DNA from: Candidatus Avispirillum sp.
Lineage (GTDB): Bacteria > Bacillota > Clostridia > Oscillospirales > CAG-272
DNA length: 64,000 nucleotides
Assembly: GCA_045636685.1 (NCBI GenBank)
Contig: JAZTXZ010000109.1
Span: 10,381 to 74,380, forward strand
Direction: 5' to 3'
This document shows positions 37,515 to 57,192 of this stretch, piece after piece; within the stretch, counting starts at the first letter, position 1, and the number at the start of each line of letters is the position of its first letter. A program made the position numbers and the translations under genes. The notes under the pieces are model-generated. The model had not been told where the DNA came from. It saw only the letters and a program-made list of their open reading frames with translations, and did no database searches.

Positions 37515-39131
37515 ATGAGTATTTTTAAAATCAAAGACGAAGCAAAACAAAAGCCTATCAAAAACGAGCACGCAAGAGAAGCATACGCCACTTTGCAGCG
37601 CTATAAGGCAGGAAAAGCATCTCTCGAGGCAAGGATCATTGAAAATGAGCAATGGTGGAGAATGCGCCACTACAATTTTGACGCAGGCACAACCCCTTCG
37701 GCATGGCTTTTCAATTCTATTATCAACAAGCACGCAGACGCCATGGACAACCTTCCCACCGTTGCTTGTCTGCCAAGGGAAGAAAGGGATATAAGCGCAT
37801 CAAAGCTCCTTTCAGACATTCTTCCCGTCATTCTCGAGGAAAACAAATTTGAAAACACATACTCCGAATGCTGGTATGACAAGCTTAAAAGCGGAAGCGC
37901 CTGCTACGGCGTTTTCTGGAACCGTTCTTTTGACGGAGGGCTTGGAAACATTGATATCAGACGCATTGATCTGCTTGATCTTTTTTGGGAACCGGGAATC
38001 ACAAACATTCAGGATTCAAGAAACATATTCCACGTTGAGCTTTGGGATAACGATATTCTGAAAAGCAAATATCCGCAGCTTGAAGATTGCCTTGCATCTC
38101 CCATATTCGATACCTCAAATTATATTTACGATGACGCTGTCGACACATCAAACAAAACTCATCTGATCGACTGGTACTACAAAAAGACAGTAAACGGCAG
38201 GGAAATCGTTCATTTTGCAAAGATTGCAAACGGCATTCTTCTATATGCATCGGAAAATGATGCCGTATACCGCGAAAGCGGATTTTATAATCACGGTAAA
38301 TATCCCTTTATTATCGACAAGCTGTACCCCGTTCAGGGTTCTCCCTGCGGATTCGGCATCATTGATGCCATGCGCTCTACTCAGGAGCAGATCGATACTC
38401 TCGGTTCAGCCATTATCAAAAACGCAAAAATGGCGGCAGAAAGAAGATACTTTGTCAGAGCGGACGGTTCTCTTAACGAAAAGGAATTTGCGGATTTTTC
38501 CCGTCCCTTCGTTCATTATCAGGGCTCCGGCGATCCCAATTCTTCGATCATGCCCATAAACACCCCCACACTCTCAGGTATTTATGTTTCCATACTGAAC
38601 AATAAAATCGATGAGTTGAAGGAAACAAGCGGCAATCGCGACTTTTCCCAGGGCTCCGTTACAGGAGGTGTCACAGCGGCGGCAGCGATCGCTGCTCTCC
38701 AGGAAGCGGGAAGCAAGACATCGAGAGATACTATTTCCGGCTCCTATCGCGCCTTTGAGGAGATATGCTCTATCGCTATCTGCCTTATAAGTCAGTTTTA
38801 TGAGATCCCCAGATGCTTTCGAATCACGGGGGAAGACTCTGCAATTGAGTTTATGTATGCACAAAAAAGCTGTTTCCCTCCTCTCAGTGATAAGATCCCT
38901 GTATTTGATATCAAAGTCAGAGCTCACAAAAAGTCTGCTTTTTCCAAGGCATCTGTTAATGAGCTTGCACTTGAGCTTTACAGGCTTGGGGCATTTAATC
39001 CCGAATATTCAAAGCAAGCGGAGATCCTTCTTTCTCTTATGGATTTTGAAGGAAAGGATGAGGCTCTTTCCGCTATACGCGAAAACAAAAGCCTTGCAAA
39101 TACTATAAGGACTCCTTCAGCTGTATTATGA
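37515..39131 (+). CDS. Phage portal protein
   Basis: 538 aa, directly after TerL. N-terminal YKAGKASLEARIIENEQWWRMRH is typical of SPP1-type portals as I recall them. Confidence 0.8.
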   Translation: MSIFKIKDEAKQKPIKNEHAREAYATLQRYKAGKASLEARIIENEQWWRMRHYNFDAGTTPSAWLFNSIINKHADAMDNLPTVACLPREERDISASKLLSDILPVILEENKFENTYSECWYDKLKSGSACYGVFWNRSFDGGLGNIDIRRIDLLDLFWEPGITNIQDSRNIFHVELWDNDILKSKYPQLEDCLASPIFDTSNYIYDDAVDTSNKTHLIDWYYKKTVNGREIVHFAKIANGILLYASENDAVYRESGFYNHGKYPFIIDKLYPVQGSPCGFGIIDAMRSTQEQIDTLGSAIIKNAKMAAERRYFVRADGSLNEKEFADFSRPFVHYQGSGDPNSSIMPINTPTLSGIYVSILNNKIDELKETSGNRDFSQGSVTGGVTAAAAIAALQEAGSKTSRDTISGSYRAFEEICSIAICLISQFYEIPRCFRITGEDSAIEFMYAQKSCFPPLSDKIPVFDIKVRAHKKSAFSKASVNELALELYRLGAFNPEYSKQAEILLSLMDFEGKDEALSAIRENKSLANTIRTPSAVL

Positions 39132-39454
39132 CACAGATAACATTTACACAATATTATGATACCTATCTTTTTGAATGCAAAGGTCATACGGGATATTCTT
39201 CGTGCGGCAGAGATATTCTCTGCTCTGCGGTTTCCTGCCTTTGCTATACCCTCGACAGATATCTGACGGGAGCGCGCGAAAAGGGACTAATTGAAAACTA
39301 CCGAAGTGATTTTTCCGAGGGAAACGTAAGCATATCATTTGAATATGCTGATATCAGCTTCCCATTTGCCGCTGAAGAGGCTGTGCGCGCAATTCTTGAA
39401 GGTTTTGTCCTTCTCTCGGAAAACTTTCCCGATCATATTTCAGCTGATATTTAA
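39128..39454 (+). CDS. Prp-like cysteine protease (DUF464, ribosomal-processing protease family; phage-encoded version)
   Basis: 108 aa. CKGHTGYSSCGRDILCSAVSCL matches the GH...G.D.vC..VS catalytic His/Cys pattern. 4-nt overlap with the portal gene. Confidence 0.7.
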   Translation: MTQITFTQYYDTYLFECKGHTGYSSCGRDILCSAVSCLCYTLDRYLTGAREKGLIENYRSDFSEGNVSISFEYADISFPFAAEEAVRAILEGFVLLSENFPDHISADI

Positions 39455-39480
39455 ACGATTTGTAGTTAATAGGTATTAAG

Positions 39481-39506
39481 AAAGGCGGACTCTCGTCCGC
39501 CTTTGG
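39481..39506 (+). terminator. Hairpin after the phage module
   Basis: Stem aaaggcggac / gtccgccttt; weak T-tract. Confidence 0.5.
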
Positions 39507-39509
39507 TTA

Positions 39510-39684
39510 TTCAAATTCGGGTTTTGCGTGGGAGGTTATGTAGGGAAGCCGCTTGCTGCTCCTGCCCATCTGCACGCGAACCAAACTAACATTTACCCAT
39601 ATCGTTGCGTTTGCAGCGGATCGCCGAGGACGTCGACCCCTACAAATTCAATATCGTCTCCTCGATAAACCAGGATTTAAAATA
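39510..39684. repeat. REPIN/MITE-like element, copy 1 (~175 bp, imperfect 15-bp TIRs, inverted GTAG-headed hairpin motifs)
   Basis: Left end TTCAAATTCGGGTTT, right end AAACCAGGATTTAAA. Long blocks are identical to 54696-54891 (for example GCGAACCAAAC.AACATTTACC and ACGTCGACCCCTACAAA..TCAATATCGTCTCCTCGATAAACC). It contains GTAGGGAAGCCGCTTGCTGCTCCT at 39540-39563. Confidence 0.7.
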
Positions 39685-39813
39685 ACATAGAGATCAACTT
39701 TATACTCTGTGCATTCCTTTCTCCATTGTCAAAAAGCTATCCTTTGCATACTATGAAACTGAAGGTATAACAGTCCTTCAAAGATCTTTCAAAAGAAAGG
39801 ATAGGTATTATTT

Positions 39814-40653
39814 ATGTCTGAAAACAGACAGTGTCAGTCTTCGGCAAAAGAAATGGTATGCATTGATACATACCGCATCCTCGATTCCTGCCGCGACAAG
39901 GACTGCTTTGAAGATGTTCGCGTGTTTCTCACGGAATACGGTCAGGAGCTTATCGAACGTGCAGGCGCGGTGAGAGCAAAGTGCGCACGGATAGTATGGT
40001 CTTATATCGACATTGACCCTGTTCCCTTTAACCGCGGCTTCTATCAGCTTAACATCAAAATATATATCCGCATTATTGCAGAGGTTTGCGTTTCCCCCGG
40101 AAATATTCAGGAGATCGAGGGCATCGCAGTTGTTGAAAAAAAGGTAATCCTTTTTGGTAGTGAAGGAAACGTTTCGGTATTCAAGAGTGAAGCAGGCACA
40201 CCGTGCTCGGGATTTTGCCCTCCCTCAGACCGTTGCAGCTGCAAGAAGGGCTCAAATCTCCCCGTTGCCGTTCTCGAGACAGTTGACCCCATTATTCTCG
40301 ATTCCAAGGTAGTTTGCGCGCCTCAGAAGATCCGCTGCTGTTGCTACTGTGAAGATATTCCCGAATCGGTATGCTGTACGATAAACGGCGGCTCTATCTG
40401 TGACTCTGATGGAGATAAACTTGTGGTTACTCTTGGACTATTCTCCATCATTCGCATCGAGCGGCCCGCCCAGTATCTCATACAGGCAACAGAATACTGC
40501 GTTCCCGAAAAGGAATGCGTTGAAGCCAAAGATAATGACCCCTGCAAACTTTTCAATTCAATGGCCTTCCCTATCGGAGAATTCTGCCCTCCATCTGCAG
40601 GATCGCTGATTCATCACACCGGTGATTGTGGTGGCAAATGCAGTTGTAAATGA
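39814..40653 (+). CDS. Cysteine-rich hypothetical protein (about 25 Cys in 279 aa)
   Basis: ORF with RBS AAAGGATAGG. Cys clusters CSGFCPPSDRCSC, CCCYC, VCC and CGGKCSCK. No signal peptide or TM helix is evident. Confidence 0.6.
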   Translation: MSENRQCQSSAKEMVCIDTYRILDSCRDKDCFEDVRVFLTEYGQELIERAGAVRAKCARIVWSYIDIDPVPFNRGFYQLNIKIYIRIIAEVCVSPGNIQEIEGIAVVEKKVILFGSEGNVSVFKSEAGTPCSGFCPPSDRCSCKKGSNLPVAVLETVDPIILDSKVVCAPQKIRCCCYCEDIPESVCCTINGGSICDSDGDKLVVTLGLFSIIRIERPAQYLIQATEYCVPEKECVEAKDNDPCKLFNSMAFPIGEFCPPSAGSLIHHTGDCGGKCSCK

Positions 40654-40682
40654 TAAAAACCCGCCTTTGGCGGGTTTTTATC
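40654..40682 (+). terminator. Terminator after the Cys-rich gene
   Basis: Stem aaaacccgcc / ggcgggtttt plus T-run. Confidence 0.75.
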
Positions 40683-40828
40683 ATTTATGAGCACATCGTG
40701 CGTTAGAATACCCTCAGAACAACAATGATGTGATCGCTTCTAACTTAGTAAAACCGATCATAGCTCGCGGACCATTCCCCACGACAAGGACCTTGCCGTC
40801 GGGGGCCCCTATGGTAGGCGAATTTAGC

Positions 40829-40858
40829 TAAAAAAAAAGCACCCCGAAGGGTGCTTTT
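40829..40858 (-). terminator. Terminator after the TIM-barrel gene
   Basis: Stem agcaccc / gggtgct flanked by long A/T runs. Confidence 0.75.
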
Positions 40859-40860
40859 TT

Positions 40861-41835
40861 TCACGCCCAAGCCATGGTTGTGGGCTTAGGCTCGTGGATG
40901 ATGCAGGGTGCGAGGCACTCGATTGCCTTGCAAAGACCCTCGTCGATGGACATAAGGCTGTCCTCGTGCTCGATGGACATAACCTTATCGTAACCAACAA
41001 GACGAAGAGCGGAGCAGATGTCCTTCCACCACTTCTGGTCGTGGCCGTAACCTACTGCACGGAATACCCATGCGCGGTTGAGCTCGTCACCGTAGTGCTT
41101 TGTATCAAGAACACCGTTTACGCTTGTGTTAATATCGTCGATCTTATTATCCTTAGCATGGAAGTGATAGATAGCATCGCCAAGGTAACGGATAGCCGCT
41201 ACGGGATCGATGCCCTGCCATACAAGGTGAGAGGGGTCGAAGTTTGCACCGAGAACGGGGCTAACTGCATTTCTGAGTCTCATAAGAGTCTCGGGGTTGT
41301 ATACACAGAAGCCGGGGTGCATCTCGAATGCGATCTTTGTTACGCCGTGAGCCTCTGCAAATGCAGCAGTCTCCTTCCAGTAAGGAATGAGAACCTCGTT
41401 CCACTGGTAATCAAGAACGCCAAGGAAGTCATCGGGCCAGGGGCAAGTTACCCAGTTGGGTGTCTTATCCTCTGCGCATCCGCCGGGACAGCCGGAGAAT
41501 GTGATGATAGTATCAACGCCTACCTTCTCTGCGAGAAGAACTGCGTTTACAAAGTCCTTATGGAAGGACTCAGCGATAGCCTTATCGGGGTGAACTGCGT
41601 TGCCGTGGCAAGCAAAAGCAGCAAGCTCGATATCATACTTCTTGAATGTATCAACGAACTCCTGAAGAGCCTTCTCATCTGCGAGAAGCTTCTCGGGGTC
41701 GCAATGAGCCTTGCCGGGGAAACCGCCGGCACCGATCTCAACTGCCTCAACGCCGAGAGCCTTGAGCTTTGCAAGGGTCTCATCAAGTGTGAGGTTTGCA
41801 TAAAGGTTTGCAAGTACGCAAAGTTTCATAATCAA
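40861..41835 (-). CDS. Sugar-phosphate isomerase/epimerase (xylose-isomerase-like TIM barrel)
   Basis: 324 aa. Typical AP-endonuclease-2/TIM-barrel pattern (GVEAVEIG, FEMHPG, SIEHED). Confidence 0.85.
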   Translation of the reverse strand: MIMKLCVLANLYANLTLDETLAKLKALGVEAVEIGAGGFPGKAHCDPEKLLADEKALQEFVDTFKKYDIELAAFACHGNAVHPDKAIAESFHKDFVNAVLLAEKVGVDTIITFSGCPGGCAEDKTPNWVTCPWPDDFLGVLDYQWNEVLIPYWKETAAFAEAHGVTKIAFEMHPGFCVYNPETLMRLRNAVSPVLGANFDPSHLVWQGIDPVAAIRYLGDAIYHFHAKDNKIDDINTSVNGVLDTKHYGDELNRAWVFRAVGYGHDQKWWKDICSALRLVGYDKVMSIEHEDSLMSIDEGLCKAIECLAPCIIHEPKPTTMAWA

Positions 41836-41901
41836 AAGAACCTTTCAATAAAAGTTAGACCCGTGTACCCGAGGGCACACGGGTGCTGAATTAGTTTTTT
41901 A

Positions 41902-42990
41902 TCAGTTGAAGTAAACCGCTTTACCTGTCTTGGCACTTTCATAAATGCCCTCGAGGATCTGAGTTACAACGTATGCCTGCTCGGGAAGTACAAGGGGCTC
42001 TGTATCGTCGATGATGCAGTGGATCCACTGATAAGCCTCTCTCTCGTGAGGAGCGCCACCTGCGTTACCGGAGTAGAAGTCTACGCCGCCTGCACCAAGC
42101 TCGATAGTCTTTGTGAACATTCTGTTGTTGTCAACGCCGTTGATGCGGAGACCGTCAACCATGTCAGCACCGCCCTGAGTACCGCAAAGAGTTGTCTTTG
42201 CCTCTCTTACGTCAAGAGAGTTGAGCGCCCATGCAGACTCGAGAACGATAGTAGCACCGTTTTCCATTACAACGAAGCCGAATGCAGAATCCTCAACTGT
42301 GAACTCATCAGGGTTCCAGTCGCCAACTGCGTTAGCTGTGTTTGTCTGGTAACGGAACTTATGGTAAGTTGTACCAACACAGTACTTGGGCTTATAGTTG
42401 TTCATTGTCCAGAGAGTGAGGTCGAGAGCGTGTGTTCCGATATCGATGAGGGGACCGCCGCCCTGCTCGTCTTCCTTAAGGAATACGCCCCATGTGGGAA
42501 CGAAACGACGACGGATAGCGTGAGCCTTTGCATAATAGATCTCACCGAGATCGCCGCGATCGCAGATATCCTTAAGATAGAGAGAATCGGGTCTCTGACG
42601 GTTCTGATAGCCGATAGAGAGCTTCTTGCCTGTTCTCTTAGCAGCCTCAAGCATCTTGAGAGCCTCTTCGGAGTTGATAGCCATGGGCTTCTCGCACATT
42701 ACGTGCTTGCCTGCCTCAAGAGCATCAACTGTGATAAAGCTGTGAGAAATGTTGGGAGTACAAACGTGTACAACGTCGATAGATTCGTCAGCGAGAAGGT
42801 CCTTGTAGTTCTCATAGAACTTAGCGTCTGCAGTACCGTACTGCTTGCAAGCAGCCTCAGCTCTTTCAACGATGATATCGCAGAAAGCAACCATCTCTAC
42901 CTCAGGTACAGACTTAAGACCGGGAAGGTGCTTACCGTTAGCAATACCGCCGCAACCGATAATACCAACTCTTACTTTTCCGTTTTCCAT
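41902..42990 (-). CDS. Gfo/Idh/MocA-family NAD(P)-dependent oxidoreductase
   Basis: N-terminal Rossmann VRVGIIGCGGIANGKH and the family motif EKPMA. Confidence 0.9.
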   Translation of the reverse strand: MENGKVRVGIIGCGGIANGKHLPGLKSVPEVEMVAFCDIIVERAEAACKQYGTADAKFYENYKDLLADESIDVVHVCTPNISHSFITVDALEAGKHVMCEKPMAINSEEALKMLEAAKRTGKKLSIGYQNRQRPDSLYLKDICDRGDLGEIYYAKAHAIRRRFVPTWGVFLKEDEQGGGPLIDIGTHALDLTLWTMNNYKPKYCVGTTYHKFRYQTNTANAVGDWNPDEFTVEDSAFGFVVMENGATIVLESAWALNSLDVREAKTTLCGTQGGADMVDGLRINGVDNNRMFTKTIELGAGGVDFYSGNAGGAPHEREAYQWIHCIIDDTEPLVLPEQAYVVTQILEGIYESAKTGKAVYFN

Positions 42991-43231
42991 TGGGGTAATC
43001 CTCCGTATTATATAAATTTATTATTTCATTGTAGAAATTGCATAATTCCAACTCTATTTTATAGTAACAAATCAATGATTTCAAGGCTTTTCGGTATTTT
43101 TTTCAATATATTTCCAATATCGTTATTTCCAACAAAACATATATACCTTATTTTGTGCTTTTGACTATTGGTTTATGCGATAAAACTCGGCAAAAAGGCA
43201 TCCAACGACCCATAATTTACCGCCAAACATT

Positions 43232-43258
43232 GTAGGGGCGACCATTGGTCGTCCCTAC
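43232..43258. repeat. REP-like palindrome GTAGGGGCGACC-ATT-GGTCGTCCCTAC
   Basis: 27-nt near-perfect palindrome with GTAG/CTAC ends. It lies 19 nt downstream of the GNAT stop and about 470 nt from the RAYT-like gene. Confidence 0.6.
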
Positions 43259-43276
43259 GTTATCCGATACAATAAC

Positions 43277-43738
43277 TTATTCTGTATAAGCGGATATATT
43301 TATTTCTTTTCTATATATTTTCTCAACACTCCCCCAAGGTGCTACTTTTCTGTCTATCACAACAAATCCGTATTTTTCATAAAGATTTTCATGATCGCTA
43401 ATAAGGTAAATGTCTGAAAATCCTACGTTCTTCAAATACCGTTCCGCGTATTGGATCATCAACTGACTCAAACGGTTACCTCTGTATTTTTGATCAACGA
43501 AAATGTAACTGACATACGGAGTATAGGGAACATCGGGAATACAATCATTTTTTTGAACCGTACAAAATCCGCATATATCTTCATTTTCAGTTACTACAAT
43601 CACTTTCTCCCAATCTGAAAACTGATTTTCTTCCATCAAAAAAGCGAGATTTTTACCTGCTCTCCACGAACAATTCTCAGCATAATTCTTTGCAATTTGC
43701 CAGAAAGGGTCGGTTGAATCTATTAATCTAAATTTCAA
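43277..43738 (-). CDS. GNAT-family N-acetyltransferase
   Basis: 153 aa. Acetyl-CoA binding pattern VDQKYRGNRLSQLMIQYAERYLKNVG. Confidence 0.8.
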   Translation of the reverse strand: MKFRLIDSTDPFWQIAKNYAENCSWRAGKNLAFLMEENQFSDWEKVIVVTENEDICGFCTVQKNDCIPDVPYTPYVSYIFVDQKYRGNRLSQLMIQYAERYLKNVGFSDIYLISDHENLYEKYGFVVIDRKVAPWGSVEKIYRKEINISAYTE

Positions 43739-44330
43739 TATCAGTCTTTTCTCCCAAATTCATATTTTTGTAATACCACCGCATCGGATTTTCGTGGATG
43801 TATTTAACATGCTCCTCGTAATCCTCGCGATTGCGGATAACGTGCTCAGAAAAGGAACGTTGAAACATTTTATCGATTCCAAATTTCTTTTTACATTCAC
43901 GGGACATCAAAGATTTAAATGCACGAACTACATCATGCAGCGTAGGGGAGCCGCTTGCTGCTCCCGACTCCATGCGTAAAAATATAAGTAAATGAATATG
44001 GTCGGGCATAATAACGTAATTCTTTATTTTTACGTTATTATATCGATTTTCTAAATTCAGGATCTGTTCTTCTGCGATTTTGCCAATGGGGGTTAACCTT
44101 GATTTATAGTTGTTTGAAAATGAAGATTGTGCCTCTGAAATTTCGTTTAAATCAAGACGTTCGTTCTCGGGAGCAGCAAGCGGCTCCCCTACGATGTTTG
44201 ACAAAATCCGTTTTCTATCCTGCGTACATATCGTTACAAAATATACGCCGGTTTTGCTGTAATCATAATTTTTGAGATGCGTTGCTTTTCTCTCAGGTAA
44301 TTTGTTTTCCATATCTATCACCTTATTCAA
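43728..44330 (-). CDS. IS200-like Y1 (HUH) transposase family protein, REP-associated tyrosine transposase (RAYT)-like
   Basis: 200 aa. YFVTICTQDR N-terminal strand, HUH motif IMPDHIHLLI, C-terminal catalytic Tyr context EHVKYIHENPMRW. No IS ends or second IS gene are present. Confidence 0.8.
   Translation of the reverse strand: MNKVIDMENKLPERKATHLKNYDYSKTGVYFVTICTQDRKRILSNIVGEPLAAPENERLDLNEISEAQSSFSNNYKSRLTPIGKIAEEQILNLENRYNNVKIKNYVIMPDHIHLLIFLRMESGAASGSPTLHDVVRAFKSLMSRECKKKFGIDKMFQRSFSEHVIRNREDYEEHVKYIHENPMRWYYKNMNLGEKTDIEI
43942..43965 (+). repeat. GTAG-headed hairpin 24-mer inside the RAYT-like CDS (copy A)
   Basis: GTAGGGGAGCCGCTTGCTGCTCCC (GTAG + GGGAGC/GCTCCC stem). Read on the coding strand it gives SGAASGSPT. 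Confidence 0.7.
44169..44192 (-). repeat. GTAG-headed hairpin 24-mer inside the RAYT-like CDS (copy B, inverted)
   Basis: Exact reverse complement of 43942-43965 (24/24). In the coding frame it reads GTA GGG GAG CCG CTT GCT GCT CCC = VGEPLAAP. Confidence 0.7.
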
Positions 44331-44361
44331 AAAAAACCGCAGGGTTTCCCCTGCGGTTTTT
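44329..44361 (-). terminator. Terminator after the BNR-protein pair
   Basis: Stem accgcaggg / ccctgcggt flanked by A/T runs. Confidence 0.75.
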
Positions 44362-44365
44362 AAGA

Positions 44366-45487
44366 TTACTTATTCAATTTCCACTTTGTGGAAAGGATGC
44401 TGGTGTGCCAGTCCTCGGGGAGGGCCTGATAATAAATTGTATAGAGAGATCCGTCGGGAAGCTCTACTGTTGCGGGGTAGCCCATATCGCGCTGACCCTC
44501 GTAATTGATATTATCGTTAAGGATATAATCCTCTTCCCATGTTTCGCCGTTATCGTAGCTTACCACTGCTCTTTCGGAGATCTGTCCCCAGGTACGGCAG
44601 GAATAGCTGCAGATAACAGCACCGGAAGAATGCACCATAAAGTGAGGAGGCATTCCGTCAACACCGATGCACTTGGGAACGCTCCATGTCTTACCCTTAT
44701 CATCGGAATATGTTACGTATACGGAATCGGAGGGTGCATCCTTTCTGCCGTTTACGCGGATACCGCCGAGGATTCTGCCGTTAGGAAGCTCGATCTGGTG
44801 AGCCTCGTACATCTGACCGTAGTCGCAGTCCTCGCCCATGGGAACCTGACCTGCATATTCCCATGTTGCGCCGTCATCTGTACTTGTATAGCAAACGAAA
44901 TCGTTATCGAAAGCATAATCAGGCTCGAATCTCTTGCCCATATAAACGAGAGTACCATCCTTGCAGCGGCAGGGGCCGTGAGGAGAATGAACGTTGAGTC
45001 TTACTCTTTCACCCCATGTTACGCCGTTATCTGTGGAAAGGCTTACGTATGAGCCCTTCTCCTCGTTATACTCCTCGTCTGTGAGAGTATGCCAATACTT
45101 GCTCCAGCCATCCATCATTGCCTTATCGCCGGGGTTGAGCCATGTCTGCTCCTGCATATGATCGAGGTAATTATCGTAATTATCGGTATACCAGGACATG
45201 AGCATCTTTCCGCCGCCGAGGTTAAGGATTCCGGGGTCGCGGTCGTCAATTCTTGAATCGTATACCACGATAGGGGGAGTCCATGTCTTACCCTCGTTGA
45301 AGCTGACCCACATGATGTTCTTTCCTGCGTGGTCAACGTGGGACATACGAAGGCCTGATGCTACTGCATAAAGCCAGCCGTTATCGCCCATAGCAAGAGA
45401 GGGCCATGCGTTATACTTGAAGGGATTATGATCGTTTGTATATCTGTGTACTATGCCGTGCTCGGCTTCGGGTCTGATTATTTTCAT
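44366..45487 (-). CDS. BNR/Asp-box repeat protein, sialidase-like beta-propeller (no signal peptide), paralog 2
   Basis: Five SxDxGxTW-type Asp boxes (SFNEGKTW, STDNGVTW, STDDGATW, SDDKGKTW, SYDNGETW). Start set at ATG 45487 (MKIIRPE), homologous to the paralog's start and forming an ATGA overlap with the upstream stop. Confidence 0.8.
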   Translation of the reverse strand: MKIIRPEAEHGIVHRYTNDHNPFKYNAWPSLAMGDNGWLYAVASGLRMSHVDHAGKNIMWVSFNEGKTWTPPIVVYDSRIDDRDPGILNLGGGKMLMSWYTDNYDNYLDHMQEQTWLNPGDKAMMDGWSKYWHTLTDEEYNEEKGSYVSLSTDNGVTWGERVRLNVHSPHGPCRCKDGTLVYMGKRFEPDYAFDNDFVCYTSTDDGATWEYAGQVPMGEDCDYGQMYEAHQIELPNGRILGGIRVNGRKDAPSDSVYVTYSDDKGKTWSVPKCIGVDGMPPHFMVHSSGAVICSYSCRTWGQISERAVVSYDNGETWEEDYILNDNINYEGQRDMGYPATVELPDGSLYTIYYQALPEDWHTSILSTKWKLNK

Positions 45488-46605
45488 TTGTTTAAACTCC
45501 ATTTCGTATAAAGAATACTTGTATGCCAGTCATCGGGAAGTGCCTGATAATAAAGGGTGAGAAGTGAGCCGTCGGAAAGCTCAACAGTTGCGGGGTAGCC
45601 CATATCGTGCTGCTTATTTCTGTTGATTCTCTCATCAAGAACGTAATCCTCGGACCATGTCTCGCCGTTATCGTAGCTGACAACTGCACGCTCGGACATA
45701 GTTTCCCAGTTTCTGCAGCTATAGCTGAGAATGAGAGCGCCTGAGGAATGGATCATGAAATGAGGGGGCATTCCGTCGATTCCCATGCATTTAGGAGTAG
45801 ACCATGTTACGCCCTTATCATCGGAATATGTAAGATATGTGGAATCTGTGGGTGCCTCCTGTCTTCCGTTTACGCGGATAGCGCCGAGAAGGCGTCCGTT
45901 TGGAAGCTCGATGATATGAGGCTCGTGCACCTGATTGGGAGCAAGGTTTTCAAAATCGGGAACCTTTCCGCAGAACTCCCAATTCTTTCCGCCATCAGTG
46001 CTCTTCCAACACTCAACGTCGGGGCCGTAGGGATGCTCATAGGTCATTGTTTTGCCGAGATAGTAAATAGTTCCGTCCTTTGCAACACAGGGACCGTGGG
46101 GGCTTGTTACGGGAACTCTGATGTTCTCGCCCCATGTTACACCGTAATCATCGGAAAGCTTAACAAAGCTTCCCCACTCCTCCTTTGCCTTTTCGGGAGG
46201 AAGAGTTTTCCAATATCCGCTCCAGCCGCTGATCATTGCCTTATCGGAGGGATGCATCCAATCCTGATCCTGCATATGGTCAAGATGGTTTTCATACACA
46301 CTTGTGAACCATGACATAAGCATTTTGCCCTCACCGAGGTAGAGGATACCTGTATCGCGGTCATCAAAATTGGAATCGTTTACGATAATGGGGGCAGTCC
46401 AGCTTTCGCCGTCGTTAAAGCTGACCCACATTACGTTCTTACCGCAGGGGTCAACGTGGGAAAGTCTGAGGCCTGATGCAGTTGCATAAAGGATACCGCG
46501 ATCGTCCTTACAAACTGTAGGCCATGCATTATATCTGAAGCAGTTATGCTCTGTAGGGTATCTGTGAACTATGCCGTGCTTCTTTACAGGATCGATTATC
46601 TTCAT
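45484..46605 (-). CDS. BNR/Asp-box repeat protein, sialidase-like beta-propeller (no signal peptide), paralog 1
   Basis: Same architecture. Start set at ATG 46605 (MKIIDPV), preceded by GAGGAAAGGAA. The ORF-track extension to 46725 was rejected. Confidence 0.8.
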   Translation of the reverse strand: MKIIDPVKKHGIVHRYPTEHNCFRYNAWPTVCKDDRGILYATASGLRLSHVDPCGKNVMWVSFNDGESWTAPIIVNDSNFDDRDTGILYLGEGKMLMSWFTSVYENHLDHMQDQDWMHPSDKAMISGWSGYWKTLPPEKAKEEWGSFVKLSDDYGVTWGENIRVPVTSPHGPCVAKDGTIYYLGKTMTYEHPYGPDVECWKSTDGGKNWEFCGKVPDFENLAPNQVHEPHIIELPNGRLLGAIRVNGRQEAPTDSTYLTYSDDKGVTWSTPKCMGIDGMPPHFMIHSSGALILSYSCRNWETMSERAVVSYDNGETWSEDYVLDERINRNKQHDMGYPATVELSDGSLLTLYYQALPDDWHTSILYTKWSLNK

Positions 46606-46825
46606 AAATCCTATTCCTTTCCTCTGTTTGCGCATAGCGCGAAGGTCGTCTGTTTTTTTCGTACAACGTTTTTGCAAAGCAAAATAATACAAGGTAAGTT
46701 TACCATTTTTGCCTTGTCTTGTCAATGTTTATGGGGAAAGTAAAATTTAGCAAACGCGAAACCAAACAGATCAAAATATTTGTTTTTGCATCATAGTCTT
46801 CCGATCAACTATAAATTTTAACAAA

Positions 46826-53955: not shown

Positions 53956-53989
53956 AAAAGGCAGGAGGGACTTCCATCCTGCCTTTTTT
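53956..53989 (+). terminator. Terminator after serA
   Basis: Stem aaggcagga / tcctgcctt plus T-run. Confidence 0.75.
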
Positions 53990-54002
53990 GAAAGGTATCT
54001 TT

Positions 54003-54638
54003 ATGAATATCTTATTTGAAGATAAATATCTTGTGATTGCACAAAAGCCTGCAGGAGTCCCCTCTCAGCCCGACCCTTCGGGAAGAGAGGACATGATAAC
54101 TCTCCTGAAAAAAGAATGCGGAGGAGAGATATTCTGTGTTCACAGGCTTGATACGGCCACAAGCGGAGTTATGGTCTATGCAAAGGATTCCAAAACCGCA
54201 GGAAGGCTCACGGCATCACTATCCGATGAGAAATCGATCAAGCAGTATTTATGCGTAGTTTATTCCGACGATGCCAAGAGCGGTACCATGCGCGATCTGC
54301 TTTTCCACGACAAGCATAAAAACAAAGCATATGTTGTTGAAAGAATGAGAGCAGGAGTCAAAGAAGCGCTTCTTGACTATGAAACCATAGCAAAAAAAGA
54401 AGGACTATCCCTTGTTATGGTCACATTACATACAGGAAGAACCCATCAGATACGAGTACAGTTTGCAAGCCGTAAGATGCCCCTTGTCGGAGACGGTAAA
54501 TACGGAGCAAAGGACAACTGTTCCCTCGCTCTCCACTGTTTTCACCTCGCCTTTCCTCATCCTATAACGAAAAAGCTTGTTGATACAGTGTGGCTCCCTC
54601 AGACGGGCTGGCATTCCTTTGAAATTAATAATTATTGA
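54003..54638 (+). CDS. RluA-family pseudouridine synthase
   Basis: HRLDTATSGVMVYAK catalytic Asp motif. Start set at ATG 54003, because the TTG at 53988 lies inside the serA terminator. Confidence 0.85.
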   Translation: MNILFEDKYLVIAQKPAGVPSQPDPSGREDMITLLKKECGGEIFCVHRLDTATSGVMVYAKDSKTAGRLTASLSDEKSIKQYLCVVYSDDAKSGTMRDLLFHDKHKNKAYVVERMRAGVKEALLDYETIAKKEGLSLVMVTLHTGRTHQIRVQFASRKMPLVGDGKYGAKDNCSLALHCFHLAFPHPITKKLVDTVWLPQTGWHSFEINNY

Positions 54639-54695: not shown

Positions 54696-54891
54696 TTCAA
54701 ATTCGGTTTTTTCGGCAAGGTTAACCCGTAGAGGCGAATTCCATATCCGCCCGTTATCTGCAAGCGAACCAAACCAACATTTACCTATATTGTTGCGTTT
54801 GCAGCGGGTCGATCGTAGGAATGGAACATTCCTACAGACGTCGACCCCTACAAAATATCAATATCGTCTCCTCGATAAACCCGAATTTGAA
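54696..54891. repeat. REPIN/MITE-like element, copy 2 (196 bp, 15-bp TIRs, nested GTAG hairpin)
   Basis: TIRs TTCAAATTCGGTTTT / AAACCCGAATTTGAA. Core shared with 39510-39684. GTAGAGGCGAATTCCATATCCGCC at 54729, perfect hairpin GTAGGAATG-GAA-CATTCCTAC at 54815-54835, and ...GTCGACCCCTAC ending at 54851. Confidence 0.7.
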
Positions 54892-54954: not shown

Positions 54955-57192
54955 TTACGGATAAACGTTTCCGCGTCTTGATCCTTCCTCATAGATCTGG
55001 ATCATGGGATTTTCTTCATAGTCGATTTTTGAAGGAAGCTTATAAAGATCGGATGAGAACACTCTCATGCCCTTATTTTTGATGGAATTATACATCCAGT
55101 CATAACGCTCCATATAAAGCGACTTGTTGTTTCCGTTTACATACCAATCAGTATGTACTGAGGAAAGTCCCATAAAGTCACAGCATACAAGAAGATTCTG
55201 TATTCTGCTTCTCTGATCGTCTGTTTTCGCCTTTTCATATGCAGTTACCAAAAGGCCTCTCATATACTCATAGTTTTCTGCAAGATACTCATATGAATAC
55301 ATATCTCCGGGACGGTCAAAGTTATTGATAAAGCAGGTTCCGCATTGATCTCCGGCCTCAGTCTGCATAAGCATATACTCGTAAAGCTCATCTACACCGT
55401 TGCCGTAGTTGATATACAGATATTCCTTCAGTATATCTGTCCACTCCTCATAGGTCATATCGGGATCCCACATGAACTTAACGGAAACATATTCTTTAAG
55501 TGTTTCAAAGTTATATGTAGTTCCGCCACCCTCATAGAAGAAGCCTGTTACATTTGCTTCCTCATGGAGCCACTTCATATTATAATAAAGATTTATTACG
55601 TTAGGACAGCTTGAAAGATAGTAGTGATATGTTACCGGATAAATCCAGAACCAAAGCTCAGCGCCTGTTTCACGACAGAGATTGCCCCAGAAAGGAAGCG
55701 CCTCAAGGTCGCCTTTATTACTCATATTATTAAGCTGACCACCGTATTCATAACATTCCTCCTTGCCGAGGATATGGTTGTTACAACCGATACCGCAGTA
55801 AAGAATGATGAAATTCTTATGAGGCTTGATAGTTGAAGGATAATCCTTTGCATATACGATACCGTAGAGACGCACACCGGGATAATACGCTTGAGCATCC
55901 TCTGTTGCCCTATTATAAAGCTGGAGGTAAAGTCCGGAATATCCCTCGGGAGGAACATACTCGTTCTTCTCTGTATTAACGTTATCCTTTTTACCGTTTG
56001 TGATAAGAGAACAGTTACGGCATGTGCAGTAATACTGGTTATCTGCAATGGAGAAGGAGAACAGTGTCTGTCCCTCTTCGATAAATGTAGGTCTGCCCCA
56101 GCTCATTACCATTCTGTTACAGTCGAGCATACCTTCAAAAAGGGTATTGTATGTATTATTATTTGTTGCGCAGGGCTGCCACTTGTATTCGTCCTTCTTT
56201 TCGCCGGAATCAAACTTTGCCTGATAGCGCTGAGATATATTGCCGTAGCTTTCATCGGGCATAGTACCTGTACCCATCTGCCAATACTCAAGGAAAGAGT
56301 GAGCATTACTGTAAAGAGGACCGATCTTTGTTCCATAGAACATTTCATCATGGCCGGAAAGCTGGCTTCCGTTAAGCTTATTGGGGAAGAAATGCCATTT
56401 GGGATTTCTTCCGAAAGTATGACGGGCATAACGGAAGTTGATCTCGGGAATCTTCTCAACGCTGACTCCCTCGGGAATATCAACTACTCTCTGCTTATAT
56501 ACGAATGTTTCTGAATTGGAATAAAATCTGATACCGAGATAATCCTCAAGAATATCAAATACAGCATACATGTTTCCACGGTATGTACCGTAAATATTGA
56601 GATTACCGTCTGTTACATCATATCTGTATCCCTCGATACCAAGGGTTTGACCGAGCTCGGAATCAAGTGCTACATCATGGAAATATATTGCTTTTGCAGT
56701 AGTAGACTCGCCATAGGACATGGGAAGTTCATATCCTGTGAGATATCTAACATACTTCATGAGGTTGAGGCTTGCAAAGTACACATTATCGTCCTCTGTT
56801 GAACCCTCGGGAAGAACAATAGACATCTGTGTTATCTCAGTTCCGGCAATAGTCATTTTGTATACCTGCATGCTATCTCCGAAATCGTCTGTTGTCTTCG
56901 CACCGGAAAGCACCATCTTCATGCAGAAAGAGTCACCTGCACCACACTTGGAATCGGCATCAAGGTCTGCCGCATCAAGGATCATATCAATTCCTGTTTC
57001 TACGCCGACTATGGAAGCCTTGATATAAAATGCATCCTGGGCGTTGACAAGACCGTTTCCGTCAACATCGCCAAGTTTAAAGGTATCATCCTTCAAAAAG
57101 CCTAGCTCAAGGGAAAAATCGCCTGCAGATACTGCAGCTGCAGAACCGATAAGCATAATCGCGCATAGTAATAACGCAAGTATTTTTTTCAT
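54955..57192 (-). CDS. Secreted protein with N-terminal dockerin-like module and a large DUF4838-like (glycoside-hydrolase-associated) domain
   Basis: Signal peptide MKKILALLLCAIMLIGSAAAVSA. Two Ca-binding dockerin-type repeats (GDVDGNGLVNAQDAFYIK; ADLDADSKCGAGDSFCMK). The CTCRNC-containing C-terminal region resembles DUF4838, from memory and tentative. Confidence 0.6.
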   Translation of the reverse strand: MKKILALLLCAIMLIGSAAAVSAGDFSLELGFLKDDTFKLGDVDGNGLVNAQDAFYIKASIVGVETGIDMILDAADLDADSKCGAGDSFCMKMVLSGAKTTDDFGDSMQVYKMTIAGTEITQMSIVLPEGSTEDDNVYFASLNLMKYVRYLTGYELPMSYGESTTAKAIYFHDVALDSELGQTLGIEGYRYDVTDGNLNIYGTYRGNMYAVFDILEDYLGIRFYSNSETFVYKQRVVDIPEGVSVEKIPEINFRYARHTFGRNPKWHFFPNKLNGSQLSGHDEMFYGTKIGPLYSNAHSFLEYWQMGTGTMPDESYGNISQRYQAKFDSGEKKDEYKWQPCATNNNTYNTLFEGMLDCNRMVMSWGRPTFIEEGQTLFSFSIADNQYYCTCRNCSLITNGKKDNVNTEKNEYVPPEGYSGLYLQLYNRATEDAQAYYPGVRLYGIVYAKDYPSTIKPHKNFIILYCGIGCNNHILGKEECYEYGGQLNNMSNKGDLEALPFWGNLCRETGAELWFWIYPVTYHYYLSSCPNVINLYYNMKWLHEEANVTGFFYEGGGTTYNFETLKEYVSVKFMWDPDMTYEEWTDILKEYLYINYGNGVDELYEYMLMQTEAGDQCGTCFINNFDRPGDMYSYEYLAENYEYMRGLLVTAYEKAKTDDQRSRIQNLLVCCDFMGLSSVHTDWYVNGNNKSLYMERYDWMYNSIKNKGMRVFSSDLYKLPSKIDYEENPMIQIYEEGSRRGNVYP

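What the first reader, a model, noticed from the sequence alone, without database searches (positions are those of the whole stretch)
43728..44330. RAYT-like Y1 transposase gene carries two perfect inverted copies of a GTAG-headed hairpin 24-mer inside its own coding sequence
Seen: the 200-aa ORF has the HUH (DHIHLL) and C-terminal Tyr (YIHENP) motifs of IS200-like/RAYT transposases, but no IS termini.

Within the CDS, GTAGGGGAGCCGCTTGCTGCTCCC occurs at 43942-43965. Its exact reverse complement occurs at 44169-44192 (24/24), 203 bp apart. Both copies keep the frame open, so one sequence is translated in two orientations, as VGEPLAAP and as SGAASGSPT. The motif is GTAG followed by a GGGAGC/GCTCCC stem. 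A 22/24 copy sits in the intergenic element at 39540-39563, and other GTAGGGG-headed palindromes lie at 43232, 39631-39643 and 54838-54851.

Established knowledge: REP sequences bound and cleaved by RAYTs are short palindromes with a conserved 5' GTAG, and they usually flank the RAYT gene.

Inference: this looks like a REP/RAYT system in a Firmicute where the cognate hairpins are embedded in the transposase gene. The cause could be recent REPIN insertion tolerated in loops, gene conversion, or a self-targeting or regulatory arrangement.
Basis: partly seen in the sequence, partly recalled or inferred. Interest (0 to 1): 0.75.

Follow-up and report, generated by a model that had tools for sequence, protein, structure and literature searches.

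The report
RAYT gene carrying its own REP hairpins
A domesticated transposase gene (RAYT) in a gut Clostridia genome carries, in frame and in opposite orientations, two copies of the short DNA hairpin (REP) that this enzyme family recognises; this has been reported for one RAYT subclass, but here the pair sits at two fixed sites and changes in step across hundreds of relatives.

Summary
GTAGGGGAGCCGCTTGCTGCTCCC lies at 43942-43965 (+), and its exact reverse complement lies at 44169-44192. With flanking bases the inverted repeat is 27 bp. Both copies are in frame in a 194-aa HUH/Tyr protein whose best structural match is E. coli TnpA-REP (4ER8).

The 24-mer is a real dispersed REP. It has 95 copies in 11 genomes, up to 25 per Oscillospiraceae MAG. 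Ninety of these lie outside long ORFs.

The in-gene pair is conserved across the family, not a recent insertion.
- All 120 closest homologues carry REP-type peptides at both sites; in nearly all, the two are reverse-complement-compatible.
- More than 20 hairpin "alleles" change in both sites together.
- Of 80 divergent metagenomic homologues, 47 have a perfect internal inverted repeat of at least 12 nt, against 2 of 196 control segments.
- Synonymous sites in REP codons are 93% conserved, against 64% elsewhere in the gene.
- Where the two arms differ, each keeps its own hairpin through compensatory changes.

Both sites are surface loops flanking the HUH half of the protein.

In-frame REPs inside tnpA-REP genes were already reported for subclass 2.4 (Quentin et al. 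2018). This is therefore a new member or variant of a known kind. The fixed inverted pair and its covariation appear not to have been discussed. The function of the pair remains inferred.

The parts
43728..44312 (-). RAYT (TnpA-REP-like HUH/Y1) gene, 194 aa from the ATG at 44312. The mechanical ORF extends to a TTG at 44330. HUH motif DHIHLL; catalytic motif YIHENP (Y-x-x-x-N-P).
   Evidence: ORF and translation. Pfam Y1_Tnp 26.6 bits against a cutoff of 23. NCBIfam REP_Tyr_transpos 79 bits against a cutoff of 80. PDB sequence hit 4ER8, E=1.1e-6. AF2 model with pLDDT 84 has 4ER8 as top Foldseek match. It is the only copy in the window.
44169..44192 (-). REP site 1. The GTAG-headed hairpin lies on the coding strand and is translated VGEPLAAP. 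It sits in the insert after the short strand that follows beta1 (the beta1-alphaA region). With flanks the arm is 44167-44193.
   Evidence: Exact match. ssDNA hairpin. The position is conserved in homologues, about 105-170 nt (mode about 123 nt) upstream of HUH. Low-pLDDT insert after strand 44-47 of the model.
43942..43965 (+). REP site 2. The same hairpin in the opposite orientation (GTAG head on the non-coding strand), translated (S)GAASGSPT. It fills the loop between the HUH beta-strand and the next helix. With flanks the arm is 43941-43967.
   Evidence: Exact match. It aligns to the loop after the HUH strand of 4ER8. Loop 119-130 in the model. A minus-strand GTAG-REP lies within 90 nt after HUH in about 57 of 80 divergent loci. 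This corresponds to the beta3-alphaC insertion domain of subclass 2.4.
39540..39643 (+). Extragenic composite (BIME/MITE-like) element. It consists of a 22/24 copy of the same REP (39540-39563, +), a conserved module CATCTGCACGCGAACCAAAC, and a different REP on the minus strand (39618-39643, GTAGGGGTCGACGTCCTCGGCGATCC).
   Evidence: It lies between ORFs 39128-39454 and 39814-40653. It aligns with elements that flank the 24-mer in Oscillospiraceae MAGs.
54728..54851 (+). Second, more diverged copy of the same composite element. A small GTAGGAATGGAACATTCCTAC palindrome (54815-54835) is nested in its right-hand REP.
   Evidence: Sequence. Alignment A2. It lies in the gap between the real-looking ORFs 53988-54638 and 54955-57192.
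43232..43258 (.). Stand-alone 'double-foot' REP GTAGGGGCGACCATTGGTCGTCCCTAC (GTAG at one end, CTAC at the other), just downstream of the GNAT gene. It belongs to a different REP family, which other RAYTs carry in frame (site-2 peptide GRPMVAPT).
   Evidence: -10.7 kcal/mol, z = -5.9. The same REP type sits inside the RAYT genes of L092, L098 and L134. Double-foot REPs are a hallmark of subclass 2.4.

Best explanation
The gene encodes a REP-associated tyrosine transposase (RAYT/TnpA-REP). Its features fit subclass 2.4 of Quentin et al. 2018, or a close sister group.

Its cognate REP is a GTAG tetranucleotide followed by a GC-footed hairpin. This REP is present twice inside the gene's own reading frame, in opposite orientations. 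Both copies sit in structurally permissive surface loops that bracket the HUH half of the catalytic domain.

Shown:
- The two segments are kept as DNA hairpins rather than as a protein motif.
- They belong to a REP family that is dispersed and mostly extragenic in related genomes.
- Across the family the two sites are fixed, while the hairpin sequence turns over. The two sites usually change together, and each always keeps its own stem.

Inferred:
- The pair is the internalised equivalent of the REPs that flank other RAYT genes (a 'REPtron'). These would be sites that the enzyme binds and can cleave when they are extruded in single-stranded DNA during replication or transcription.
- Enzyme and a REPIN-like copy of its substrate would then be inherited as one unit.
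- The in-gene copies would be kept matched to the genomic REP pool by RAYT-mediated strand exchange between REPs, and/or by template switching between the arms. Selection would retain only in-frame, loop-compatible outcomes.
- An effect of the hairpins on RAYT expression is possible but secondary.
For: Identity of the protein
- HUH and Y-x-x-x-N-P motifs.
- Pfam Y1_Tnp above its cutoff. NCBIfam REP_Tyr_transpos scores 79 bits against a cutoff of 80.
- 4ER8 is the best hit by sequence and by fold.

The 24-mer is a dispersed REP
- 95 matches in 11 genomes: 25, 21, 14, 10 and 8 copies in five Oscillospiraceae/Clostridia MAGs.
- Only 3 copies lie in RAYT genes, and 90 are not inside long ORFs.
- Extragenic GTAG-outside doublets and composite elements exist.
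- L006-L008 carry an inverted pair just downstream of the gene.

The pair is family-wide and covaries
- All 120 closest homologues carry REP-type peptides at both sites, and in nearly all of them the two are reverse-complement-compatible.
- 36 of 139 divergent representatives have reverse-complement-compatible runs of at least 7 codons, against 0 of 139 shuffles. They span more than 20 different hairpin alleles.
- At the DNA level the arms are perfect 24-mers with different sequences in L001 and L003.
- 47 of 80 metagenomic homologues have a perfect inverted repeat of at least 12 nt, and 24 of 80 have one of at least 21 nt. Only 2 of 196 controls reach 12 nt.
- Positions and orientations are fixed.

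The constraint acts on DNA
- Third-codon positions in REP codons are 50/54 identical, against 282/443 elsewhere.
- The 24-mers are 71% GC in a gene that is otherwise 35% GC.

The local hairpin is the conserved unit
- Differences between arms fall in loops, or are compensated within each arm: 8 compensated pairs in 8 loci.

Both sites are loops
- AF2 model and the 4ER8 alignment.

Prior description of the kind
- Quentin et al. 2018.

Breakage at the sites
- L171 is a relic that has lost exactly the inter-REP segment.
Against: - No biochemical evidence shows that this protein binds or cleaves this hairpin.
- The source genome itself could not be surveyed. Within the 64-kb window there is only one degenerate extragenic copy of this REP.
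- The NCBIfam RAYT model falls 1 bit short of its cutoff.
- The HuH-to-Tyr distance is 64 aa, shorter than the subclass 2.4 median of 88 aa, so subclass membership is not secure.
- About 23 of 80 divergent homologues lack a REP after the HUH motif. Many others have degenerate or mixed-type pairs. The pair is therefore dispensable for the protein, and it could be a tolerated passenger rather than a functional part.
- The linkage and exchange mechanism is inference only.
Confidence: 0.75

Rival explanations
1. Passive passengers. REPs land preferentially in the RAYT's own gene because the enzyme acts in cis. They survive only in two loops that tolerate in-frame insertions, and they have no role. 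This is essentially how Quentin et al. 2018 read the subclass 2.4 insertions.
For: - Both sites are peripheral loops.
- Occupancy varies: about 23 of 80 loci have no REP after HUH.
- Some genes carry mixed REP types at the two sites.
- Site 1 can hold 2-4 tandem REP-containing repeats, as in P0122, P0034 and P0043.
- Di Nocera et al. 2013 report REPs in frame in unrelated genes.
Against: - Site, frame and orientation are the same in homologues down to about 25-40% identity, with more than 20 hairpin alleles.
- REP-less relatives keep loops of the same length, so the REPs do not behave as simple indels.
- Each arm keeps its stem through compensatory changes.
- Random cis insertion would be expected to give more varied positions and orientations.
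Confidence: 0.3
2. RNA-level autoregulation. The two complementary 27-nt arms pair in the mRNA, or each forms a hairpin. This limits translation or recruits a double-strand-specific RNase and keeps transposase levels low.
For: - The mRNA segment is predicted to form a 27-bp long-range helix. The MFE is -102.8 kcal/mol against -70.0 +/- 5.4 for shuffles, z = -6.1.
- Transposase mRNAs are often structure-repressed (general knowledge of IS200 and IS10).
Against: - Where the arms differ, the changes preserve each arm's own hairpin and break the long-range pairing.
- Wobble-type mismatches are symmetric between strands: 15 sense G.U against 19 antisense.
- The conserved GTAG head, and identity to extragenic REPs, are not needed for an RNA helix.
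- In some lineages the partner lies upstream of the ORF, or site 2 is a self-palindrome.
Confidence: 0.15
3. Self-limiting switch. The RAYT cuts at its own two REPs and excises or inverts the HUH-coding segment, inactivating itself.
For: - The arrangement, GTAG-REP ... REP-CTAC, is that of a REPIN.
- One relic gene (L171/P0153) has lost exactly the inter-REP segment, with the junction at the REPs.
Against: - Only one relic was found among 268 proteins inspected.
- Its junction is untidy, with an extra 8 nt and 28 nt, and fits replication slippage at an inverted repeat equally well.
- Inversion would give an immediate stop codon (read), and no inverted form was seen.
- Extragenic doublets have spacers unrelated to the gene.
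Confidence: 0.1
4. The feature is only a conserved protein motif (two Gly/Pro/Ser-rich loops), and the DNA complementarity is a chance by-product.
For: The peptides recur in many homologues.
Against: - The 24-mer is dispersed outside genes.
- Shuffles never give such pairs.
- Synonymous positions are over-conserved.
- The peptides change freely as long as the DNA stays a GTAG hairpin.
Confidence: 0.01

Closest known systems
Subclass 2.4 TnpA-REP (RAYT) genes with in-frame intragenic REPs (Quentin, Siguier, Chandler & Fichant 2018, BMC Genomics 19:475; equated there with RAYT Group 4 of Bertels et al. 2017)
   Same: - Class 2 Y-x-x-x-N-P motif.
- GTAG REPs with a GGG/CCC stem foot.
- 'Double-foot' REPs in the same genome.
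- REPs inside the gene that keep the reading frame.
- A variable insert between the HUH strand (beta3) and alphaC.
- No C-terminal extension domain.
   Different: [quoted passage not shown]
- Here there is in addition a second, oppositely oriented copy upstream of HUH at a fixed site. The two copies covary, and the HuH-Tyr distance is 64 aa rather than a median of 88 aa.
- The host is a gut Clostridia lineage rather than Cyanobacteria or Bacteroidetes.
- Phylogenetic placement in subclass 2.4 could not be tested.
E. coli REPtron (TnpA-REP with flanking REP/BIME; Nunvar 2010; Ton-Hoang 2012; Messing 2012, PDB 4ER8)
   Same: - HUH/Y1 fold, with the best structural and sequence match.
- A GTAG guide tetranucleotide 5' of a hairpin.
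- Single-copy gene.
- Inverted REPs associated with the gene.
- The GTAG-contact residues Q, E, H and R align.
   Different: - In E. coli the REPs flank the gene. Here they are inside the coding sequence and are translated.
- The tryptophan at E. coli position 94 is Phe here.
- The REP copy number is much lower, at tens per genome.
REPINs (REP doublets forming hairpins; Bertels & Rainey 2011)
   Same: Two REPs in inverted orientation with the GTAG heads outside. Extragenic doublets of this type, spaced about 75-90 bp, exist for the same 24-mer.
   Different: The in-gene pair is separated by 203 nt of protein-coding, non-self-complementary sequence. It is not itself seen as a repeated unit.
IS200/IS605 insertion sequences
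   Same: A Y1 HUH transposase that recognises subterminal hairpins with a 5' guide tetranucleotide in single-stranded DNA.
   Different: - IS ends are direct, not inverted.
- IS ends flank the gene.
- The whole IS is multi-copy.
- Here the NCBIfam IS200 model scores 23 bits against a cutoff of 55, there is one gene copy in the window, and there is no tnpB.
REPs and RPEs inserted in frame in unrelated genes (Di Nocera et al. 2013; Rickettsia palindromic elements)
   Same: Short palindromic repeats translated as part of functional proteins, located in loops.
   Different: Those are sporadic, lineage-specific insertions. Here the host gene is the REP's own transposase, and the sites are conserved family-wide.

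Membership tests
RAYT / TnpA-REP (class 2 TnpA-Y1) | HUH motif plus a catalytic Tyr in a Y-x-x-x-N-P context | tested here: met
   DHIHLL and YIHENP in the translation. Definition from Quentin 2018.
RAYT / TnpA-REP (class 2 TnpA-Y1) | Curated profile match | tested here: inconclusive
   Pfam Y1_Tnp scores 26.6 bits against a cutoff of 23, which is met. NCBIfam REP_Tyr_transpos scores 79 bits against a cutoff of 80, 1 bit short.
RAYT / TnpA-REP (class 2 TnpA-Y1) | TnpA-REP fold | tested here: met
   AF2 model with pLDDT 84.3 and pTM 0.77. The top Foldseek PDB hit is 4ER8 (E=8.6e-8), ahead of the IS608 and ISDra2 TnpA structures.
RAYT / TnpA-REP (class 2 TnpA-Y1) | Association with a genome-dispersed family of GTAG-headed palindromes | tested here: met
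   The same 24-mer occurs 95 times in 11 genomes. It is mostly extragenic, and RAYT genes of two of those genomes carry it. In the window itself there is only one degenerate extragenic copy.
RAYT / TnpA-REP (class 2 TnpA-Y1) | Single copy per genome, not IS-like | tested here: inconclusive
   One copy in the 64-kb window. The whole source genome is not available.
RAYT / TnpA-REP (class 2 TnpA-Y1) | Binds and cleaves its REP as single-stranded DNA | not testable with these tools
   Needs recombinant protein and oligonucleotide assays.
Subclass 2.4 of Quentin et al. 2018 | REP sequences inside the tnpA-REP gene without disrupting the frame | tested here: met
   Definition.
Subclass 2.4 of Quentin et al. 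2018 | Variable insertion domain between beta3 (HUH) and alphaC | tested here: met
   Site 2 fills loop 119-130 between strand 111-118 and helix 131-150. The loop is variable in the alignment. Here it is short, at about 10 aa.
Subclass 2.4 of Quentin et al. 2018 | REP types: canonical hairpins with three G-C pairs at the stem foot, and 'double-foot' GTAG...CTAC REPs | tested here: met
   GGG.../...CCC foot. Double-foot REP at 43232-43258. Similar entries appear in their table, for example GTAGGGGCGACCGGCCGGTCGCCCCTAC.
Subclass 2.4 of Quentin et al. 2018 | Enlarged HuH-Y distance (median 88 aa) | tested here: not met
   The distance from H113 to Y177 is 64 aa, within the 58-67 aa range of most other subclasses. 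The paper notes that the distance is 'quite variable' in subclass 2.4.
Subclass 2.4 of Quentin et al. 2018 | Placement in the subclass 2.4 clade with the authors' profiles or tree | not testable with these tools
IS200/IS605 insertion sequence | Profile match, multi-copy element, direct subterminal hairpins flanking tnpA | tested here: not met
   NCBIfam transpos_IS200 scores 23 bits against a cutoff of 55. There is a single copy. The hairpins are inverted and internal.
REPIN | Two inverted REPs that together fold into one long hairpin and recur as a unit in extragenic space | tested here: not met
   The arms are inverted, but the 203-nt spacer is coding and not self-complementary. The unit is not repeated. 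True extragenic doublets of the same REP exist elsewhere.

The most novel reading that the evidence does not exclude
The in-gene inverted REP pair is not a passenger. It is the heritable 'master copy' that ties each RAYT to its REP family. New extragenic REPs or REPINs are seeded from it, or exchanged with it, by the enzyme acting on its own gene. Enzyme specificity and substrate sequence therefore co-evolve as one locus. Occasional self-cleavage, as in the L171 deletion relic, provides a built-in brake.
Probability: 0.15. Interest if true: 0.7.

Novelty: new variant of a known kind. Interest (0 to 1): 0.4.

Why it matters
How REP families and their single-copy RAYTs stay matched over long periods is an open question, and so is how REPs are copied at all.

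A large RAYT clade carries two oppositely oriented copies of its own substrate at fixed in-frame sites, with hairpin-preserving covariation. This gives a compact and testable handle:
- The hairpins can be destroyed by synonymous recoding without changing the protein.
- The in-gene allele predicts which REP family a given RAYT serves. That is useful for annotating metagenomes, where such genes are usually labelled only 'transposase' or 'hypothetical'.

It may also help explain why surveys that look only at flanking DNA can miss REPs associated with some RAYTs.

The basic phenomenon is already published, so the gain is incremental unless a function is shown.

Tried and rejected
- Exact look-up of the window protein's contig (P0001) found nothing on record. 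The source genome could therefore not be surveyed, and it was not among the GTDB representatives hit.
- A strict perfect-stem GTAG-hairpin scanner found no excess in the window: 4 observed against 0-3 in shuffles. It was too strict, since it missed the G.T-containing palindrome at 43232, and was dropped.
- A first mismatch-tolerant peptide test timed out. It was replaced by the longest-compatible-run test.
- I considered that the extragenic doublets might be internal-deletion derivatives of the gene's inter-REP segment. Their spacers share a different conserved module and do not resemble the gene, so this was rejected.
- I considered inversion of the inter-REP segment as a dual-coding switch. 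The inverted reading frame hits a stop after 9 codons (read), so this was rejected.
- I considered subclass 2.1/TIRYT (Bertels Group 1, reported in Clostridia). The protein lacks the C-terminal HTH extension that defines it, so this was rejected.
- An Rfam scan of 39000-45500 found no known RNA family.
- The long-range mRNA helix was considered as the selected feature. It was downgraded after the analysis of differences between arms.
Full report
**Observation.** The 24-mer GTAGGGGAGCCGCTTGCTGCTCCC is at 43942-43965 on the + strand. Its exact reverse complement is at 44169-44192. A 22/24 copy is at 39540-39563. None of 100 dinucleotide shuffles of the window gave any match. Including flanking bases, the inverted repeat is 27 bp: 43941-43967 and 44167-44193. 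Both arms lie in the minus-strand ORF 43728..44330 and are read as VGEPLAAP and (S)GAASGSPT. The ORF has DHIHLL and YIHENP motifs. The likely start is the ATG at 44312, which has an AAGGTG ribosome-binding site 6 nt upstream. The identical database protein P0001 also starts there. As single-stranded DNA the 24-mer forms a 6-bp GGGAGC/GCTCCC stem with an unpaired 5' GTAG.

**What the protein is.**
- Pfam Y1_Tnp is matched above its cutoff.
- The NCBIfam 'REP-associated tyrosine transposase' model scores 79 bits against a cutoff of 80. The IS200 model scores only 23 bits against a cutoff of 55.
- The only solved relative by sequence is E. coli TnpA-REP, 4ER8.
- An AlphaFold model built from a 38-sequence alignment has pLDDT 84 and pTM 0.77. 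Its best PDB match is also 4ER8, followed by the IS608 and ISDra2 transposases.
- There is one copy in the window and no known RNA family over the region.

**The 24-mer is a real REP.** One scan of 185,579 species-representative genomes with a slightly degenerate pattern returned 82 stretches with 95 matches.
- The matches are concentrated in a few Oscillospiraceae/Clostridia MAGs, with 25, 21, 14, 10 and 8 copies.
- Four matches are in Chloroflexi.
- Only two stretches overlap a RAYT homologue.
- 90 of 95 matches are not inside long ORFs.
- Many lie next to other GTAG/CTAC palindromes, or form GTAG-outside doublets 75-90 bp apart.
- Several share the module CATCTGCACGCGAACCAAAC with the window's elements at 39540-39643 and 54728-54851.

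**The in-gene pair is family-wide and covaries.**
- All 120 closest homologues carry REP-type peptides at both sites, and in nearly all of them the two change together as reverse complements. Examples are VGEPLAAP/GAASGSPT, VGEGLAPP/GGASPSPT, VGECLGAP/GAPRHSPT and VGEGIAPP/GGAIPSPT.
- At the DNA level, L001 and L003 carry perfect 24/24 pairs with different sequences. L006-L008 add an extragenic pair just downstream of the gene.
- Among 139 representatives of 50%-identity clusters, 36 have reverse-complement-compatible runs of at least 7 codons, against 0 of 139 shuffled controls. More than 20 hairpin alleles are represented.
- In 80 metagenomic homologues at 25-55% identity, the longest perfect internal inverted repeat is at least 12 nt in 47 and at least 21 nt in 24. 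Only 2 of 196 equal-length flanking controls reach 12 nt. The arms almost always begin with GTAGGG.
- About 57 of the 80 have a minus-strand GTAG-REP within 90 nt after the HUH motif. About 40 have the plus-strand partner inside the ORF, 105-170 nt (mode about 123 nt) upstream of HUH.
- In a few lineages the partner lies just upstream of the ORF, or site 2 is a self-palindrome.

**The constraint is on DNA, and the unit is the local hairpin.**
- Between the window gene and four relatives, third-codon positions at identical residues are 50/54 identical inside the REP codons, against 282/443 elsewhere.
- L040 has both 24-mers identical to the window, although the two genes are only 74% identical in nucleotide sequence.
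- The 24-mers are 71% GC in a gene that is otherwise 35% GC.
- Where the two arms differ, the differences lie in the hairpin loops, or are compensated within each arm: 8 compensated stem pairs in 8 loci. Few are disruptive.
- Wobble-type mismatches are symmetric between strands, 15 against 19.

The mRNA is predicted to form a 27-bp long-range helix (z = -6.1). Even so, the conserved feature is a GTAG hairpin at each site, not the pairing between sites.

**Structural context.**
- Site 1 follows a short strand after beta1, in a low-confidence insert (residues 48-70).
- Site 2 fills the loop between the HUH strand (111-118) and the next helix (131-150).
- REP-less homologues keep a loop of the same length after HUH. 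Some genes carry two different REP types at the two sites. Site 1 can hold 2-4 tandem REP-containing repeats.

The REPs therefore behave as replaceable cassettes at two fixed, permissive sites, not as a recent one-off insertion.

**Prior knowledge.**
[quoted passage not shown] They describe a variable insertion domain between beta3 and alphaC, and canonical plus 'double-foot' REPs. Their REP table lists hairpins of the same type as the window's 43232 palindrome.
- Di Nocera et al. (2013) report REPs in frame in unrelated genes, and REPs or TIRs overlapping the ends of RAYT genes.
- Bertels et al. (2017) looked at flanking 16-mers only.
- Four full-text searches found no other description of in-gene REPs in RAYTs.

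The kind is therefore known. I did not find the following in the text: the fixed, oppositely oriented pair bracketing the HUH half, its covariation, or the synonymous-site constraint. Their Fig. S10 could not be viewed.

Membership of subclass 2.4 is plausible on REP type, the in-frame REPs, the beta3-alphaC insert and the lack of a C-terminal domain. However, the HuH-Tyr distance is 64 aa against a median of 88 aa, and phylogenetic placement could not be tested.

**Mechanism.**

Shown:
- The two sites hold members of a dispersed REP family.
- They are maintained as hairpins.
- They sit in surface loops.

Inferred:
- They are the internalised equivalent of REPtron flanking REPs, so that enzyme and substrate are inherited together.
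- They are kept matched to the genomic pool by RAYT-mediated exchange or by template switching between the arms.

One relic gene (L171) has lost exactly the inter-REP segment. Its junction is an intact site-1 REP, then 8 nt, then the last 9 nt of the site-2 REP. This is consistent with breakage or slippage at these hairpins, but it is a single case.

The rivals are a passive passenger, RNA-level autoregulation and a self-excision switch. They are weighed in the rival-explanations section of this report, and none is excluded by experiment.

Noticed in passing
window 39540-39643 and 54728-54851; L012, L021, L023, L043, L048: Two copies of a composite BIME/MITE-like element: REP(+), a conserved module CATCTGCACGCGAACCAAAC, a variable stretch, then a REP(-) of another type. 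The same module follows the 24-mer in several Oscillospiraceae MAGs, while the right-hand REP differs between genomes.
   Followed up: partly
window 54815-54835: A small GTAGGAATGGAACATTCCTAC palindrome is nested inside the right-hand REP of the second composite element, a REP-like unit inserted into a REP.
   Followed up: no
window 43232-43258: The double-foot REP GTAGGGGCGACCATTGGTCGTCCCTAC belongs to a different REP family. Other RAYTs carry that family in frame (site-2 peptide GRPMVAPT in L092, L098 and L134). This suggests a second RAYT/REP system in the source genome, outside the window.
   Followed up: partly
L028, L035, L051, L071: The exact Clostridia 24-mer also occurs in Chloroflexi: Nitrolancea hollandica and a Chloroflexia MAG. 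With about 0.07 chance matches expected by my own estimate, this points to shared or transferred REP types across phyla.
   Followed up: no
L171 3001-3405 (GCA_045658525.1): A RAYT relic (P0153, 134 aa) lacks the whole alphaA-HUH segment. Its junction is the intact site-1 REP, then 8 nt, then the last 9 nt of the site-2 REP, then a 28-nt insert.
   Followed up: partly
window 43277-43738 (-); L003 9536-9967: A GNAT acetyltransferase gene overlaps the 3' end of the RAYT gene by 11 nt. A GNAT gene is also adjacent to the RAYT in L003-L005, on the other side.
   Followed up: no
window 44366-45502 and 45484-46725 (-); L001 25-2387: Tandem BNR_2 (sialidase-like) paralogues lie upstream of the RAYT. 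The same neighbours occur in L001, where the RAYT is truncated before the Tyr motif and is followed by an MmeI-type restriction-modification gene.
   Followed up: no
P0122, P0034, P0043, P0107, P0113 (site 1); P0047, P0114 (site 2): Some homologues have 2-4 tandem in-frame repeats, each containing a REP. P0122, for example, has four 29-aa units. This suggests REP-associated duplication inside the gene.
   Followed up: no
window 43728-44312: Outside the two 24-mers the RAYT gene is 35% GC, against 44.7% for the window as a whole.
   Followed up: no
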